NCBI RefSeq assembly: GCF_013315695.1
Contig: NZ_CP054353.1
Source of the DNA: Escherichia coli
Lineage (GTDB): Bacteria > Pseudomonadota > Gammaproteobacteria > Enterobacterales > Enterobacteriaceae
Direction: 5' to 3' (one strand)
Length of the DNA: 64,000 bases
Shown: piece by piece, positions 14,869-18,708 of the stretch
Position numbering within the stretch: the first letter of the stretch is position 1
Layout of the letters: each line of letters starts with the position of its first letter
The notes under the pieces: generated by a model
Told to the model about the DNA's origin: nothing
What the model saw: only the letters and a program-made list of their open reading frames with translations
Databases searched by the model: none
Made by a program: the position numbers and the translations under genes

Positions 14869-15293
14869 ATCCCCTCCAGAAATATGTGACTTATCCTTTA
14901 CGCTGGCAGTATAACGGGAAAGGCCATGCTAATACGTGATGACATCACATTTAAGCATGGCAAATGTCTGAAAAATGAGCGAATAATCGCGTTATACTCC
15001 CTCTTGCTGATAAGCCTGCAAAAACAACAAAATCAAATAATTAGCATGATAAATTATTTTTTATTACGCCTAAAGGATTAAATCTTTTGCTTGCACTACA
15101 CTGTCAATCAGACAAATGACTATATGGGGCAACCCGCTGTTGCCCTAAATCAAATTTACTGGATTTATTTATCTGGTGAATGACTCGCCTTCGTTTTTAA
15201 AATAGCCGCGCATTATTTCCGTCGTCACTTTTTTACGACGACCCTATAAAACGACCATATTTTTCACAGGGTCAATTTTTAATTGAGGTGGAT

Positions 15294-15989
15294 ATGTTCA
15301 GAAAATTAGCAGCTGAATGTTTTGGTACTTTCTGGCTTGTTTTTGGTGGCTGTGGTAGTGCCGTACTGGCCGCAGGCTTCCCGGAATTAGGCATTGGTTT
15401 TGCCGGCGTGGCGCTTGCATTCGGTCTGACCGTTCTGACGATGGCCTTTGCTGTTGGTCATATTTCTGGTGGTCATTTTAACCCGGCGGTCACTATTGGT
15501 TTATGGGCTGGCGGACGTTTCCCGGCAAAAGAAGTCGTTGGCTACGTAATTGCCCAGGTTGTCGGCGGTATTGTTGCGGCGGCGCTGCTGTATTTAATTG
15601 CCAGTGGTAAAACGGGTTTTGACGCGGCAGCCAGCGGTTTTGCTTCTAACGGTTATGGCGAGCATTCGCCAGGCGGTTATTCCATGCTTTCCGCGCTGGT
15701 AGTTGAACTGGTATTGAGTGCAGGTTTCCTGCTGGTGATCCACGGCGCAACCGACAAATTCGCTCCGGCAGGTTTTGCGCCGATCGCTATTGGTCTGGCC
15801 TTAACCCTGATTCACTTAATCAGTATTCCGGTGACTAACACTTCTGTTAACCCGGCGCGCAGCACCGCGGTTGCTATCTTCCAGGGCGGCTGGGCGTTAG
15901 AACAACTGTGGTTCTTCTGGGTGGTGCCAATTGTCGGCGGTATTATCGGTGGTCTGATTTACCGGACCCTGCTGGAAAAGCGTAATTAA
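15294..15989 (+). CDS. aqpZ: Aquaporin Z
   Basis: MIP-family channel with two NPA motifs ([14 protein letters not shown]). Confidence 0.9.
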
Positions 15990-16001
15990 TTAACGCAGAA
16001 G

Positions 16002-16027
16002 GCCTGGCGCAATGTCAGGCTTTTTTT
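16002..16027 (+). terminator. aqpZ rho-independent terminator
   Basis: GCCTG-loop-CAGGC hairpin followed by T7 directly after aqpZ stop. Confidence 0.55.
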
Positions 16028-16112
16028 AAAATGTTGTTATATGTTGATTCATCATCTTGTTGCGCTCCTTTCATGAGCTAAGCCACATATTGCCACTGAC
16101 GCAAGGAGCGCG

Positions 16113-16141
16113 CAGGGGGCGGCCAATCGCCGCCGCCCCCT
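16113..16141. repeat. GC-rich palindrome
   Basis: CAGGGGGCGGC-caatcgc-GCCGCCCCCTG, perfect 11-bp arms. Confidence 0.4.
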
Positions 16142-16253
16142 GCCCCCCCGGGCTCTGGCGAACAAAATCGCCGCTGCGCGGTACCCTCGGCTTATCCCTT
16201 GCGGCTACCGGGTCGGGCGCGAGGTAACATATATGGACGCTCCCGGAATGCAA

Positions 16254-16503
16254 TGCTTTCTTCAGTTATGTAATAAAACGGGTAGGTGCAGCCATATATC
16301 CGGTTTCTGATGGGATTTTTATCCCGAACCATGATGAAATCCGCCAGGCAGGTACCAATCATCCTCTACGGGCTAACTTGCCCTTGTTACCTCTCGGTGT
16401 ATCCTGCCTGCGGTCTTACCTGTTTTGCCATCTTCTGAAGTCACCTGCACCTACCAGGACGTTAACTTTTTTTCAGCACCTCGTCAGATTGACTGACCTT
16501 GTG
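16254..16503 (-). ncRNA. Candidate structured non-coding RNA (possible bridge RNA) 3' of IS110-family recombinase
   Basis: 250-nt non-coding region with long-range inverted repeat GGTAGGTGCAG / CTGCACCTACC and local hairpins; bridge-RNA assignment is by analogy only. Confidence 0.25.
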
Positions 16504-17529
16504 TCAGGCGAGCTGCCGAGGTTGATATTCAGTATTGTGTGACAACATTGACCACATGATCCTCGCTGTTTTTGCCGCCATGGCGACAACAGCTACATTG
16601 TAGTGCTTCCGCTCAAGGAGTCCCTGAAGCCAGGAATTCTCCTCAACCGCGCCGTTTCGGTTGACCCAGGCGGTAAGTGCGCGTGCGCCGTGAACCAGCA
16701 GGTATCGGAAATATCCATCTCCACGTTTGCTGATCCCTCCCAGTTGCTGTTTCCCGCCGCTGGAATGTTCCTTTGGTGTCAGCCCCAGCCATGAAGCGAA
16801 CTGCTTTGCGGTACTGAATTGTCGGGCATTACCCACTGCTGCTACCACATAAGTGGCCGTTAGCATGCCAACCCCCGGGATCTTGGCCATTCTCTGGCAG
16901 GCTTCCTGCGTTCTATACCAGGAGGCCAGAGCTTCTTCTACCTGTTTAACTTGTTCTTCAAGTTCCCGGATATGTTTAGACTGTCTGTAGATGCTGGTTC
17001 TGACAAAGGGAGATAAACCATTTTCGCCATCCTCCAGAATGGCTGGCAGCTCACGTGTTAAATGGCTTTGTCCGGCCGCAATCGTAATACCAAACTCAGC
17101 AAGTGTGGCTCTTAAACTATTGGCACAGGCAATCCGCTCACGGATAAGTATTCCCCGTTCAGTGTGTAACGCTAAAACGGCCTGCTGCTCTTCGGTTTTT
17201 ATCTGAACAAAACGCATATTCGGACGGGTTACCGCTTCGCAGATTGCTTCAGCATCTGCTGCATCCGTCTTGTTCGTTTTCACATAAGGCTTCACATACT
17301 GCGGAGGTATGAGTTTTACCTCATGACCATAGCGGGTGAATAATCGCGCAAAATAATGACTGGATGAGCAGGCTTCCATGCCAATCAGACAAGGTTCCAG
17401 TTGAATCACAAACTGAACAAACTTAGCCCGGGTGAGCTTTTTACGCAAAATAGTATGGCCTTCATGATCGACACCATGAAGCTGAAAAACGTTCTTTGCC
17501 AGGTCGATACCAAGAGTTGATACTTTCAT
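16504..17529 (-). CDS. IS110-family transposase/recombinase (DEDD RuvC-like N-domain + C-terminal HhH domain)
   Basis: 341-aa ORF; N-terminus GIDLAKNVFQLHGVD and C-terminal AKIPGVGMLTATYVVAAVGNARQF...GISKRGD match IS110/IS1111 transposase family patterns. Confidence 0.8.
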   Translation of the reverse strand: MKVSTLGIDLAKNVFQLHGVDHEGHTILRKKLTRAKFVQFVIQLEPCLIGMEACSSSHYFARLFTRYGHEVKLIPPQYVKPYVKTNKTDAADAEAICEAVTRPNMRFVQIKTEEQQAVLALHTERGILIRERIACANSLRATLAEFGITIAAGQSHLTRELPAILEDGENGLSPFVRTSIYRQSKHIRELEEQVKQVEEALASWYRTQEACQRMAKIPGVGMLTATYVVAAVGNARQFSTAKQFASWLGLTPKEHSSGGKQQLGGISKRGDGYFRYLLVHGARALTAWVNRNGAVEENSWLQGLLERKHYNVAVVAMAAKTARIMWSMLSHNTEYQPRQLA

Positions 17530-17530
17530 G

Positions 17531-17606
17531 TGGACGCTCCTAATTTTTCAGGACGTATTGCAACGATCCAGTCTGGTACTTTGATACCGTAAAATCTGGA
17601 GCGTCC
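17531..17606 (-). promoter_or_regulatory. RBS-sequestering hairpin in recombinase leader
   Basis: On minus-strand RNA, TGGACGCTCC (from 17606-17597) can pair with GGAGCGTCCA (17540-17531), which contains the GGAG Shine-Dalgarno immediately before the ATG. Confidence 0.4.
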
Positions 17607-17760
17607 ATCTCATTATCCCTGTAAAACGCGCCCTCAGCCCACATCCATGTGGGCTGCCCCGGCCTTCAGGGAACGCCTCGGCGATTTTGACGCCACCAAA
17701 CAACCGTGCGGCCTATTGATAAAGAGCTAACACATTGTCAAAAAACATCACTATGGTTTC

Positions 17761-18708
17761 TTAGAGTTTCTCGATATCAATTGCCTGAATAGCCCTTGCA
17801 ATATCAGGGGAATTATTCAACACCCGAACATGCTGAAATAATTCTGTTGCTTCATCGTATTCTTTACGCAAATAACTCAACCACTGTTTAATCCGCGCTA
17901 CGTGATATAACCCGGTATCGCCCTGCTTTTCCAGACGGGTATATTTTTGCAGCAAAGCAACTACCTCCGGCCACGGCATTCGCGGTTCGTTATATTTTAC
18001 CACCCGGCTCAGGTTGGGAATATTGAGCGCCCCGCGACCAATCATCACTGCGTCACAGCCGCTGATCGCCATGCATTGTTGCGCGCTCTGCCAGTCCCAG
18101 ATTTCACCGTTGGCAATCACCGGAATATTCAACCGCTGGCGAATCTCGCCAATCGCCTGCCAGTCAATATGCTCCGCGCGGTAACCCTGCTCTTTTGTCC
18201 GCCCATGTACTACCAGCTCCGTAGCGCCAGCCTGTTGCACCGCATCGGCGATTTCAAATTTCTTCTCACCGCTGTCCCAGCCCAGACGCACTTTTACGCT
18301 GACGGGCAAATGCGCCGGTACAGCTTCGCGCATCGCTTTTGCACCCTGATAGATGAGTTCAGGATCTTTGAGTAACGTCGCCCCACCGCCGCTACCGTTA
18401 ACCGTTTTCGACGGGCAGCCGCAATTGAGATCCACGCCCCAGGAACCTAACTCGACCGCACGGGCGGCATTCTCTGCCAGCCATTGTGGGAACTGACCTA
18501 ACAACTGCACGCGCACCAGCGTACCGGATGGTGTCCGGCTGGCGTTTTGTAGCTCAGGGCAAATGCGATGAAAGACTTTTACCGGCAGCAGTTGATCCAC
18601 CACGCGGACAAACTCGGTGATGCACAGATCGTAGTCGTTAACTTCGGTCAGCAATTCACGCACCAGAGAGTCGAGTACACCCTCCATCGGTGCCAGTAAC
18701 ACACGCAT
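17761..18708 (-). CDS. dusC: tRNA-dihydrouridine synthase C
   Basis: 315-aa Dus-family TIM-barrel flavoenzyme; recognised as DusC (YohI). Confidence 0.9.

What the first reader, a model, noticed from the sequence alone, without database searches (positions are those of the whole stretch)
16243..17606. IS110-family element with RBS-sequestering leader hairpin and a structured 3' non-coding region (candidate bridge RNA)
The 341-aa recombinase is bounded by inverted 11-mers (ATGGACGCTCC). A copy of the same motif supplies the GGAG Shine-Dalgarno, which can pair with the upstream copy to form a 10-bp stem occluding the RBS, suggesting translational control. The 250-nt region 3' of the gene is non-coding and contains long-range inverted repeats. 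IS110-family recombinases are known to be guided by element-encoded bridge RNAs, and in the IS1111 subgroup these lie 3' of the recombinase.
Basis: partly seen in the sequence, partly recalled or inferred. Interest (0 to 1): 0.55.

Follow-up and report, generated by a model that had tools for sequence, protein, structure and literature searches.

The report
ISEc81 insertion sequence with guide RNA

Summary
A 341-aa DEDD transposase gene (16504-17529, minus strand) lies between perfect inverted 11-mers. A third copy of the 11-mer carries the GGAG ribosome-binding site. A 274-nt non-coding tail follows the gene.

An uninterrupted copy of the site in another E. coli fixes the element at 16230-17615 (1386 bp). 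The repeats are subterminal, with 7-nt and 3-nt extensions and no target duplication. That is the IS1111-group anatomy. The protein is 337/341 identical to ISEc81.

The tail encodes a two-module RNA (core 16284-16413, minus strand).
- A covariance model built only from distant relatives hits the window once, exactly there (86.7 bits).
- 20 of 24 consensus pairs show compensatory changes.
- In 43 relatives, one loop strand is complementary to each element's own right flank, and another matches its own left flank (0/5000 permutations each).
- Here, GAGGUAACA pairs with TGTTACCTC next to the insertion point.
- The RNA aligns position for position with the validated ISEc11 seekRNA.

Durrant et al. 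2024 already list ISEc81 with a right-end bridge RNA.

The leader hairpin is stable and covaries across the clade. Its role in translational control is inferred, not shown.

Verdict: already known, low interest.

The parts
16230..17615 (-). Complete ISEc81 element, 1386 bp, IS1111 group. An AT overlap leaves the boundaries ambiguous by 1-2 nt (16229-17614 up to 16231-17616).
   Evidence: The uninterrupted site in E. coli KFu014 reads ...GCGAGGTAACAT|CCCTGTAAAAC.... The same ends are found at three other chromosomal sites and in Kluyvera. The element-only query matches 179 of 5426 E. coli genomes, nearly all at 99% identity or more.
17609..17615 (-). 7-nt left-end extension, TAATGAG. Its first 4 nt form part of the -10 hexamer of the circle-junction promoter. 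Positions 3-7 pair with the RNA segment UUUCAUCA.
   Evidence: (covariation with the RNA, 0 of 2000 shuffles reach the observed value). The 7/3 convention is from PMC11187229.
17598..17608 (-). Left subterminal inverted repeat (IRL), ATGGACGCTCC. It is the 5' arm of the leader hairpin.
17575..17588 (-). Small inner leader hairpin, GGUAUC-AAA-GUACC, conserved in relatives as GGCAUC..GAUGUGCC. Function unknown.
   Evidence: fold. (helix 2: 86% of cells paired, 3 of 5 pairs with compensatory changes).
17530..17540 (-). Anti-IRL copy, GGAGCGUCCAC, which contains the Shine-Dalgarno GGAG. It ends 1 nt before the ATG and is the 3' arm of the leader hairpin.
   Evidence: It covaries with the terminal repeat in relatives.
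16504..17529 (-). Transposase/recombinase gene, 341 aa, DEDD RuvC-like domain plus Tnp domain. Motif residues: D9, E52, D89, D92, and GLTPKEHSSG.
   Evidence: (337/341 identical to ISEc81). RefSeq annotates it as 'IS110 family RNA-guided transposase'.
16284..16413 (-). Core of the bridge/seek RNA, two modules. With the conserved 5' leader GAUGGCAAAACAGGUAAGACC it extends to about 16432.
   Evidence: Covariance model R1, built from 38 relatives without this element: a single hit in the window, 86.7 bits, E about 8e-23, full length. Covariation. Alignment to the ISEc11 and ISPa11 non-coding regions.
16344..16411 (-). Module 1, the target-binding module. Outer stem GCAGGCAGG (16403-16411) / CCUGCCUGG (16344-16352). 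It encloses an internal loop and the apical hairpin GGGCAAGUUAGCCC (16370-16383).
   Evidence: helices 1-4: all 13 pairs show compensatory changes. Coordinates.
16385..16393 (-). T guide, GAGGUAACA. It is complementary to the top strand of the right flank, TGTTACCTC (window 16221-16229), which lies immediately next to the insertion point.
   Evidence: (I10). Family test: own flank 7.00 nt versus 3.91 permuted, 0 of 5000 permutations. Same position as the validated ISEc11 T guide.
16360..16364 (-). B guide, GGAUG. It has the same sense as the target top strand GGA|TG, which spans the insertion point, so it pairs with the bottom strand. It is short in this element (5 nt).
   Evidence: Family test: 6.42 versus 3.78, 0 of 5000 permutations. 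Same position as the ISEc11 B guide.
16292..16343 (-). Module 2, the donor-end module.
- UUUCAUCA (16332-16339) pairs with the left-end extension.
- Stem GGUU / AACC.
- Hairpin GGGAUAAAAAUCCC (16312-16325).
- GGAUAUAUGG (16292-16301) has the same sense as the right-end extension plus the first flank bases.
   Evidence: (helices 5-7).
16248..16253 (-). -35 hexamer, TTGCAT. It becomes a promoter only when the ends are joined: 16 nt downstream the junction then reads TA|TAAT.
   Evidence: TTGC is nearly invariant in the alignment. The -10 hexamer spans the RE|LE joint in 42 of 43 relatives. 30 of 43 junctions score 9/12 or better, against 5 of 43 for the integrated ends. The integrated element has no minus-strand promoter-like site.
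16230..16243 (-). Right subterminal inverted repeat (IRR), GGAGCGTCCAT (16233-16243), plus the 3-nt right-end extension AUA (16230-16232).
16215..16229 (.). Right half of the target. It is one arm (GGGCGCG on the plus strand) and part of the loop of a hairpin in a repeat of about 280 bp. It contains the T-guide match.
17616..17633 (.). Left half of the target. It holds the rest of the loop (TCCCTGTAAAA on the plus strand) and the other hairpin arm (CGCGCCC).
   Evidence: The uninterrupted repeat gives a sub-threshold TwoAYGGAY hit.

Best explanation
The feature is an intact, probably active copy of ISEc81, an IS1111-group member of the IS110 family. It sits in its specific target, the loop of a hairpin inside an intergenic repeat of about 280 bp.

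The element carries three functional parts:
- a DEDD/serine recombinase gene;
- a two-module guide RNA (bridge RNA, also called seekRNA) in the 274-nt tail 3' of the gene;
- subterminal inverted repeats with 7-nt and 3-nt extensions.

Mechanism, inferred by homology to ISEc11, ISPa11 and IS621:
1. The element excises as a circle.
2. Joining the ends creates a sigma-70 promoter, TTGCAT-16 nt-TA|TAAT.
3. That promoter transcribes the recombinase gene and, as its 3' UTR, the guide RNA. The RNA is then processed and bound by the recombinase.
4. In module 1, the strand GAGGUAACA pairs with the target top strand (TGTTACCTC). The strand GGAUG pairs with the bottom strand across the crossover point. 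Together these set site and orientation.
5. Module 2 pairs with the element's own end extensions.
6. Recombination inserts the circle without a target duplication.

Separately, the mRNA leader folds the left repeat onto a complementary copy that contains the Shine-Dalgarno sequence. This most likely damps translation of the recombinase, including from read-through transcripts of the co-oriented upstream gene (here dusC).

Shown here: the anatomy, the boundaries, the identity, the RNA family membership, covariation, and guide-target complementarity. Inferred: that the RNA is made, that the protein binds it, that it is required, and what the hairpin does.
For: Identity and boundaries
- Both Pfam domains match.
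- The protein is 337/341 identical to ISEc81.
- An empty site defines the ends and shows no duplication.
- Identical junctions occur at aqpZ|dusC, dusC-yohP and yegH-asmA, and at three Kluyvera sites.
- The element is in 179 of 5426 complete E. coli genomes, at most 4 places each. The target repeat has a median of 4 places per genome.

RNA
- Model R1, built from 38 relatives whose transposases are 54% identical or less (ISEc81 excluded), hits the window once: 16284-16413 on the minus strand, 86.7 bits.
- R1 also hits held-out relatives downstream of, and co-oriented with, their transposase genes.
- RNAalifold predicts 24 pairs, 20 of them with compensatory changes.
- 91.1% of cells are paired, against 43% or less when partners are slid. 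The covariation score is 0.624 against 0.198 in shuffles, 0 of 500 shuffles as high.

Guides
- The longest match to an element's own right flank averages 7.37 nt, against 5.22 for other elements' flanks. 29 of 43 reach 7 nt, against 8%, and the matches cluster about 150 nt upstream of the right repeat.
- Position-restricted permutation tests give T 7.00 versus 3.91, B 6.42 versus 3.78, and the module-2 3' strand 3.95 versus 3.44. Each is 0 of 5000.
- The left-end-extension guide covaries, 0 of 2000 shuffles.
- The Pectobacterium relative L012 keeps the RNA scaffold. Its T-guide segment is replaced and matches its own, different flank.

Literature
- seekRNA was shown experimentally for ISEc11, ISPa11, ISKpn4 and ISPst6. 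The T guide lies 5' of the B guide and the two overlap in the target (PMC11187229).
- The ISEc81 tail aligns position for position with these RNAs.
- Durrant et al. 2024 list ISEc81 as IS1111 with a bridge RNA in the right end.

Promoter.

Hairpin: for stability. The anti-repeat tracks each element's own repeat. 72.8% of cells are paired against 33-48% when slid, and 6 of 10 pairs change on both sides.
Against: - No expression data exist for this element. The RNA's existence, ends and processing are inferred.
- Rfam 15 has no family that matches.
- The B guide of ISEc81 is only 5 nt of exact match, which is weak taken alone.
- In ISEc11 an 82-nt RNA (module 1 only) was enough for mini-IS movement. 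The donor-binding role I assign to module 2 is therefore not established for the IS1111 group.
- The 43 relatives are not phylogenetically independent, so the permutation counts are not exact probabilities.
- A junction-promoter transcript would start inside the left repeat and still contain most of the 5' arm. The hairpin therefore cannot cleanly tell read-through transcripts from element-driven ones.
Confidence: 0.9

Rival explanations
1. The 3' non-coding region acts only as DNA. It would carry the -35 element of the junction promoter and recombinase-binding sequences, and it would make no functional guide RNA.
For: The last 50 nt or so do hold DNA-level signals: the conserved TTGC -35 and the right repeat. 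No transcript has been observed for this element. Rfam finds nothing.
Against: Compensatory base-pair changes occur in 20 of 24 pairs. That points to selection on a folded single strand, not on duplex DNA. The variable loop segments track each element's own flanks. The homologous region of ISEc11 is required in cis or in trans as RNA, and that RNA co-purifies with the transposase.
Confidence: 0.04
2. The third repeat copy at the start codon is not an RNA-level RBS occluder. It would be a DNA-level site, for example a second recombinase-binding or autoregulatory site or an alternative right-end-like end. Or the stem would mainly act as a 5'-terminal hairpin that stabilises the mRNA.
For: The copy has the same sequence and orientation as the right repeat (GGAGCGTCCA), so a protein that binds the repeats could bind it. 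Covariation between the left repeat and this copy is expected under either reading, because all three copies must co-evolve. A junction-promoter transcript would begin inside the left repeat, which puts the stem at the extreme 5' end (geometry).
Against: In most relatives the copy is always placed so that GGAG and the start codon lie in or next to the 3' arm, ending 0-3 nt from the ATG. The RNA stem is very stable. Occlusion of the RBS by pairing a terminal repeat with a nearby repeat is a common theme in IS elements such as IS10 and IS50 (general knowledge).
Confidence: 0.3
3. The copy in the window is an inactive relic, fixed in this lineage and no longer mobile.
For: Only 1-4 copies occur per genome, and most strains share the same few sites.
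Against: The ORF is intact and all catalytic motifs are present. Both ends and the RNA are intact. Copies at 99.4-100% identity occupy at least three different repeat copies, and 96-97% identical copies occur in Kluyvera. Low copy number is explained by there being only about 4 target repeats per genome.
Confidence: 0.07
4. The long-range 11-bp inverted repeat (16281-16291 / 16445-16455) is the closing stem that defines the functional RNA.
For: It is a perfect 11-bp complement (I12). It appears in the single-sequence minimum-energy fold, where the whole non-coding region has z = -2.55.
Against: The 5' arm carries two uncompensated changes in the 97%-identical Kluyvera copies. The stem is not part of the family consensus structure, where the CUGCA of the 3' arm lies just 3' of module 2. 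The covariance-model hit ends at 16413.
Confidence: 0.1

Closest known systems
ISEc81 (ISfinder entry; IS110 family, IS1111 group)
   Same: The transposase is 337/341 identical. It has the same length (341 aa) and the same host species. Durrant et al. 2024 classify ISEc81 as IS1111 with a predicted bridge RNA in the right end.
   Different: There are four amino-acid differences (A91T, S154N, W288R, E297K relative to the listed sequence). The ISfinder nucleotide entry and its stated ends could not be consulted, so DNA identity and agreement of the ends are untested.
ISEc11 and its seekRNA (Siddiquee, Pong, Hall and Ataide 2024, PMC11187229)
   Same: - Same overall anatomy: subterminal repeats, 7/3-nt extensions, no duplication, a 3' non-coding region and a junction promoter.
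- The non-coding regions align at 52% identity, with the same scaffold.
- The T and B guides sit at the same positions: ACAGUAUUUU / GUGAAAAU in ISEc11, GAGGUAACA / GGAUG here.
- The T guide is 5' of the B guide and the two overlap in the target.
   Different: - The target differs: GTGAAAATACTG for ISEc11, against the hairpin loop GGGA|TGTTACCTC of an intergenic repeat here.
- The element is 1386 bp against 1443 bp, and the protein 341 aa against 339 aa.
- The RNA of ISEc81 has not been tested experimentally.
IS621 bridge RNA (Durrant et al. 2024, PMC11208160; Hiraizumi et al. 2024, PMC11208158)
   Same: - Same recombinase family, with DEDD residues plus a catalytic serine in the Tnp domain.
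- A two-loop guide RNA in which each loop reads both strands of a DNA partner.
- Cross-recognition of the non-cognate partner (handshake guides). Here this resembles module-2 and module-1 strands that extend across the end-flank junctions.
   Different: - The IS621 RNA is 5' of the gene, in the left end. Here it is 3', in the right end.
- IS621 has only 2-3-bp subterminal repeats and a shared CT core dinucleotide. Here the repeats are 11 bp and only a 1-nt overlap is general (40 of 43 relatives).
- The donor-binding function of module 2 is not demonstrated for IS1111 elements.
IS4321 / IS5075 and other IS1111 members that target repeated palindromes (REP, attC, Tn21 inverted repeats)
   Same: They fall in the same transposase cluster in Durrant's table. 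Each inserts at one position and in one orientation into a repeated, hairpin-forming sequence.
   Different: The target here is a repeat of about 280 bp in Enterobacteriaceae that resembles the TwoAYGGAY motif. It is not a transposon end, REP or attC.
Fold-back inhibition of transposase translation in IS10/IS50-type elements (general knowledge, not tested here)
   Same: A terminal repeat pairs with a nearby complementary copy that contains the RBS. Transcripts that enter from outside are therefore poorly translated.
   Different: Here the element's own junction-promoter transcript would also contain most of the 5' arm. The stem is also conserved with covariation across a whole clade.

Membership tests
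IS110 family | N-terminal DEDD (RuvC-like) domain and C-terminal Tnp domain with the G(L)-P----S(T)G motif | tested here: met
   PF01548 at 1e-14 and PF02371 at 4e-24. D9, E52, D89, D92 and S256-S257-G258 fall in invariant alignment columns, and the GLTPKEHSSG motif is present. Motif definition from PMC11187229.
IS1111 group | Subterminal inverted repeats of about 11-13 bp | tested here: met
   Perfect 11-bp repeats at 16233-16243 and 17598-17608.
IS1111 group | Asymmetric terminal extensions beyond the repeats (7 nt left, 3 nt right) and no target-site duplication | tested here: met
   Comparison with the empty site gives 10 nt of element DNA outside the repeats, assignable as 7+3, and no duplicated bases. 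Convention.
IS1111 group | Long non-coding region downstream of the transposase gene | tested here: met
   274 nt 3' of the gene (16230-16503), against an 86-nt leader.
IS1111 group | A promoter assembled at the circle junction | tested here: inconclusive
   In silico, TTGCAT-16 nt-TA|TAAT forms only when the ends are joined. This is conserved in relatives, and the integrated element has no promoter-like site on its coding strand. No circle was observed and no transcription was measured.
IS1111 group | Insertion at one specific site and in one orientation | tested here: met
   Identical junctions, and the same orientation relative to the repeat, at three E. coli loci and three Kluyvera loci.
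ISEc81 (same IS name) | Near-identity to the ISfinder reference | tested here: met
   The protein is 337/341 identical. The reference nucleotide sequence is not held, so DNA identity is not testable with these tools.
Bridge RNA / seekRNA of IS1111 elements | Conserved secondary structure in the non-coding region, on the transposase strand | tested here: met
   Covariance-model hit of 86.7 bits from a model that excludes this element. 20 of 24 pairs are compensatory. Controls.
Bridge RNA / seekRNA of IS1111 elements | A loop segment complementary to the target top strand (T guide), 5' of a segment matching the bottom strand (B guide), with the two overlapping in the target | tested here: met
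   T guide: 9 nt (11 of 12 with one mismatch) against TGTTACCTC. B guide: GGAUG across the insertion point. The overlap is TG. Family-wide permutation tests give 0 of 5000. On its own, the B guide of this element is short (5 nt).
Bridge RNA / seekRNA of IS1111 elements | The RNA is produced, binds the recombinase, and is required for circle formation and insertion | not testable with these tools
   Shown for ISEc11, ISPa11, ISKpn4 and ISPst6. No data exist for ISEc81.
Rfam TwoAYGGAY (RF01731), considered for the target repeat rather than for the element | Score at or above the curated gathering threshold (43 bits) | tested here: not met
   30.9 and 30.2 bits, full-length match, on uninterrupted repeat copies. 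This is a resemblance only.

The most novel reading that the evidence does not exclude
Two points might not yet be described.

(a) The leader hairpin. It is formed by the left terminal repeat and a Shine-Dalgarno-containing anti-repeat, and it covaries across the whole ISEc81 / IS4321 / ISYen1 clade. It may be a dedicated translational gate on the RNA-guided recombinase.

(b) The natural landing pad of ISEc81. It is the second hairpin loop of an enterobacterial repeat that resembles the orphan TwoAYGGAY RNA motif. The outer hexamer of the clade's terminal repeats (RTGGAY) echoes the motif's loops. This hints that such repeats are co-evolved targets or relatives of IS1111-type elements, not free-standing RNAs.
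Probability: 0.15. Interest if true: 0.4.

Novelty: already known. Interest (0 to 1): 0.15.

Why it matters
It matters little as a discovery. The element is catalogued as ISEc81. RefSeq already calls its protein an RNA-guided transposase. Its right-end bridge RNA is listed in published supplementary data. The mechanism has been shown experimentally for sister elements.

What this analysis adds is a worked annotation for this element:
- exact ends;
- the target, a hairpin loop in an intergenic repeat with about 4 copies per genome;
- the explicit T and B guides;
- a covariance model for the clade's RNA.

It also adds two small leads: the covarying leader hairpin and the TwoAYGGAY-like nature of the target. 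The annotation could help anyone who wants to use ISEc81 as another programmable recombinase that is native to E. coli.

Tried and rejected
- Rfam scans found no family for the RNA, and nothing at all at gathering threshold in 64 kb. I scanned the region with E-value thresholds and the whole window at gathering thresholds. The only hit near the region was a chance miRNA match inside the ORF.
- A sigma-70 and terminator scan of the integrated element found no promoter on the coding strand. I therefore dropped the idea of a separate promoter for the RNA.
- RNAalifold on a MAFFT alignment of the leaders failed to recover the long stem, because of register shifts. I replaced it with per-sequence matching and explicit pair counting.
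- I considered the long-range inverted repeat 16281-16291 / 16445-16455 as the closing stem and rejected it as a conserved feature.
- I first read the core as a 2-nt AT overlap. Across relatives only a 1-nt overlap is general (40 of 43), and the second base matches in 7 of 43.
- I considered whether the IS caused the aqpZ|dusC rearrangement. One genome has the same junction without the IS, so the IS is not needed for it.
- Partridge and Hall 2003 and Prosseda et al. 2006 are not held in the library. I could not check whether the leader hairpin has been described before.
- I did not test the small ORFs of 50-56 aa in the non-coding region for coding potential. I treated them as spurious because the region's conservation pattern is that of paired RNA.
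Full report
**Observation**

The window is E. coli chromosome. The local gene order is ybjD, aqpZ, the element, dusC, then the gentisate genes.

- The 341-aa ORF is at 16504-17529 on the minus strand. It matches Pfam DEDD_Tnp_IS110 and Transposase_20.
- The perfect inverted 11-mers ATGGACGCTCC / GGAGCGTCCAT are at 16233-16243 and 17598-17608. A third copy with one mismatch is at 17530-17540, directly 5' of the ATG, and it contains the GGAG.
- The count of three matches in 64 kb is only mildly unusual by itself (0.85 expected). The arrangement and its conservation in relatives carry the weight.
The energy is -30.2 kcal/mol, z = -3.74.

**Boundaries and identity**

Most E. coli genomes carry the flanking DNA without the element. 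One genome (KFu014) has the very same aqpZ|dusC junction uninterrupted. It reads ...GCGCGAGGTAACAT|CCCTGTAAAACGCG....

- The inserted DNA is 1386 bp. A 2-nt AT ambiguity remains.
- With the 7-nt left / 3-nt right extension convention for IS1111 elements (PMC11187229), the element is 16230-17615.
- There is no target duplication, and the whole 3' non-coding region belongs to the element.
- The protein is 337/341 identical to ISEc81 in the ISfinder set distributed with Siddiquee et al. 2024.
- RefSeq annotates it as 'IS110 family RNA-guided transposase'.
- The element is present in 179 of 5426 complete E. coli genomes, at up to 4 places each, nearly all at 99% identity or more.

**Target**

Copies at aqpZ|dusC, dusC-yohP and yegH-asmA, and three copies in Kluyvera, all sit at the same position and in the same orientation. 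In element orientation the site is ...GGGCGCG-TTTTACAGGGA|TGTTACCT-CGCGCCC.... That is the loop of a hairpin with a 7-bp stem.

The hairpin lies in an intergenic repeat of about 280 bp that occurs a median of 4 times per genome. This fits the low copy number of the IS.

Uninterrupted repeats give a full-length but sub-threshold match to Rfam TwoAYGGAY (30.9 bits against a gathering score of 43). The insertion point falls in the loop of the motif's second hairpin. I record this as a resemblance, not as membership.

**The 3' RNA**

I fetched 80 loci that encode relatives of the transposase. I located their subterminal repeats, extensions and flanks.

Structure:
- An alignment of the 190 nt upstream of the right repeat from 43 non-redundant elements gives a consensus of 24 pairs. 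20 of them have compensatory changes.
- 91.1% of cells are paired, against 31-43% when partners are slid. The covariation score is 0.624 against 0.198 in shuffles.
- The structure has two modules.
  - Module 1 is an outer stem, an internal loop and an apical hairpin.
  - Module 2 is a short GCG/UGC stem, a GGCC/GGCC stem (GGUU/AACC in ISEc81) and a hairpin.
- A covariance model built from 38 relatives, excluding ISEc81, Kluyvera and Pectobacterium, hits the 64-kb window once. The hit is 16284-16413 on the minus strand, 86.7 bits, full length.
- The model also hits held-out relatives downstream of their transposase genes.
- Rfam itself has no matching family.

**Guides**

- In ISEc81 the 5' strand of the module-1 loop is GAGGUAACA (16385-16393). 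It is complementary to TGTTACCTC, the nine bases immediately right of the insertion point. With one mismatch the match extends to 11 of 12.
- The 3' strand contains GGAUG (16360-16364). It has the same sense as GGA|TG across the insertion point, so it can pair with the bottom strand.
- Across the 43 relatives, the segment at the equivalent position matches each element's own right flank. The mean is 7.00 nt against 3.91 after permuting flanks, 0 of 5000.
- The second segment matches each element's own left flank plus crossover. The mean is 6.42 against 3.78, 0 of 5000.
- The Pectobacterium relative (70% protein identity, same repeats) keeps the scaffold. Its first guide is replaced by UUCGCCG, which matches its own flank CGGCGAA.
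- In module 2, the 5' strand (xCCAUCA; UUUCAUCA here) pairs with positions 3-7 of the left-end extension and covaries with it, 0 of 2000 shuffles.
- The module-2 3' strand (GGAYAYAUG...) has the same sense as the right-end extension plus the first flank bases. The signal is weaker but significant.

The relatives are not independent, so these counts are not exact probabilities.

**Link to experiment**

Siddiquee et al. 2024 showed several things for ISEc11, ISPa11, ISKpn4 and ISPst6.
- The 3' non-coding region is required in cis or in trans.
- RNAs of about 80 and 150 nt from it co-purify with the transposase.
- A top-strand match (T) lies 5' of a bottom-strand match (B), and the two overlap in the target.

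Their published non-coding-region sequences align with ISEc81 position for position. The ISEc11 guides ACAGUAUUUU and GUGAAAAU fall where I placed GAGGUAACA and GGAUG.

Durrant et al. 2024 predicted bridge RNAs in 93% of IS1111 elements, located in the right end. Their supplementary table lists ISEc81 as 'RE, IS1111'.

The handshake guides described for IS621 are the nearest analogue to the cross-junction matches seen here.

One caveat: in ISEc11 the 82-nt RNA alone supported mini-IS movement. The donor role of module 2 is therefore not established.

**Expression logic**

- The integrated element has no promoter-like site on its coding strand.
- Joining the right end to the left end creates TTGCAT-16 nt-TA|TAAT.
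- In 42 of 43 relatives the best -10 hexamer spans the joint at the same register. 30 of 43 junctions score 9/12 or better, against 5 of 43 for the integrated ends.
- The TTGC of the -35 is nearly invariant.

This agrees with the junction promoter reported for ISEc11 and others. It implies that the RNA is made as the 3' part of the transposase transcript.

At all sites examined the element is co-oriented with, and downstream of, the neighbouring gene: dusC, yegH or yohP. Read-through transcription is therefore also possible.

**Leader hairpin**

The anti-repeat next to the start codon follows each element's own terminal repeat. Examples are GTGGACGGCCC with GGAGCCGTCCAC, ATGGACTCCTCC with GGAGGAGTCC, and GTGGATGGCTCC with GGGAGCCATCCAC.

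On an unrefined alignment, 72.8% of cells pair, against 33-48% when slid. 6 of 10 pairs change on both sides.

The feature is therefore selected across the clade. Sequestration of the ribosome-binding site is the simplest reading.

The same covariation would arise if all three copies are protein-binding DNA sites. A junction-promoter transcript would also still contain most of the 5' arm. I put about 0.5-0.6 on translational damping. I could not check the older literature for a prior description.

**What did not hold**

The long-range 11-bp inverted repeat (16281-16291 / 16445-16455) is real. However, it carries two uncompensated changes in the Kluyvera copies, and it is not part of the consensus structure.

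**Verdict**

The element, its class, its mechanism, and even the prediction of a right-end bridge RNA for ISEc81 are already in the literature and in databases. It is already known and of low interest. The minor leads are listed under things noticed in passing.

Noticed in passing
window 16047-16229 and 17616-17710 (uninterrupted copies: L002 575-714, L003 1615-1766): The IS target is an intergenic repeat of about 280 bp, with a median of 4 places per E. coli genome. Uninterrupted copies give a full-length but sub-threshold match to the orphan Rfam motif TwoAYGGAY (30.9 bits, gathering score 43). The IS sits in the loop of the second hairpin. The outer hexamer of the clade's terminal repeats is RTGGAY, which resembles the motif's AYGGAY loops.
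   Followed up: partly
window 15288-18708: aqpZ lies next to dusC. In other strains (L003, L005, L007) the repeat next to dusC is flanked by yohP-mdtQ, and most genomes match only one half of the joined junction query at either locus. The junction lies inside the repeat. One genome (KFu014, L002) has the same junction without the IS, so a rearrangement between repeat copies does not require the IS. In strain CFIAFB20120266 (L007) the repeat plus IS is inverted relative to dusC.
   Followed up: partly
window 17575-17588 (minus strand): A second, small leader hairpin (GGUAUC-AAA-GUACC) lies between the left repeat and the start codon. It is conserved in nearly all relatives as GGCAUC..GAUGUGCC, with 86% of cells paired and some compensatory changes. 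Its function is unknown. It lies within the roughly 50 bp of left end that sufficed for mini-IS movement in ISEc11.
   Followed up: partly
relatives L012-L088, and window 16229 / 17615: The first base of the left-end extension equals the first base of the right flank in 40 of 43 relatives. The adjacent base matches in only 7 of 43. This suggests a 1-nt overlap at the crossover, not the 2-nt core of IS621. Two ISEc81 copies (L007, L011) have C instead of T at that flank position.
   Followed up: partly
window 16112-16143: A perfect 12-bp GC-rich palindrome (GCAGGGGGCGGC ... GCCGCCCCCTGC, 8-nt spacer) lies in the left part of the same intergenic repeat, downstream of aqpZ.
   Followed up: no
window 16412-16432 (minus strand): The segment GAUGGCAAAACAGGUAAGACC, just 5' of module 1, is strongly conserved in relatives and in ISEc11 (GAUGACAAAAGACAGGUAAGACC). 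It lies outside the predicted helices. It may be a processing or protein-binding site.
   Followed up: no
L001 2048-2745: In isolate AF3, which shares the aqpZ|ISEc81|dusC arrangement, an IS1A copy lies between ybjD and aqpZ. That copy is absent from the window.
   Followed up: no
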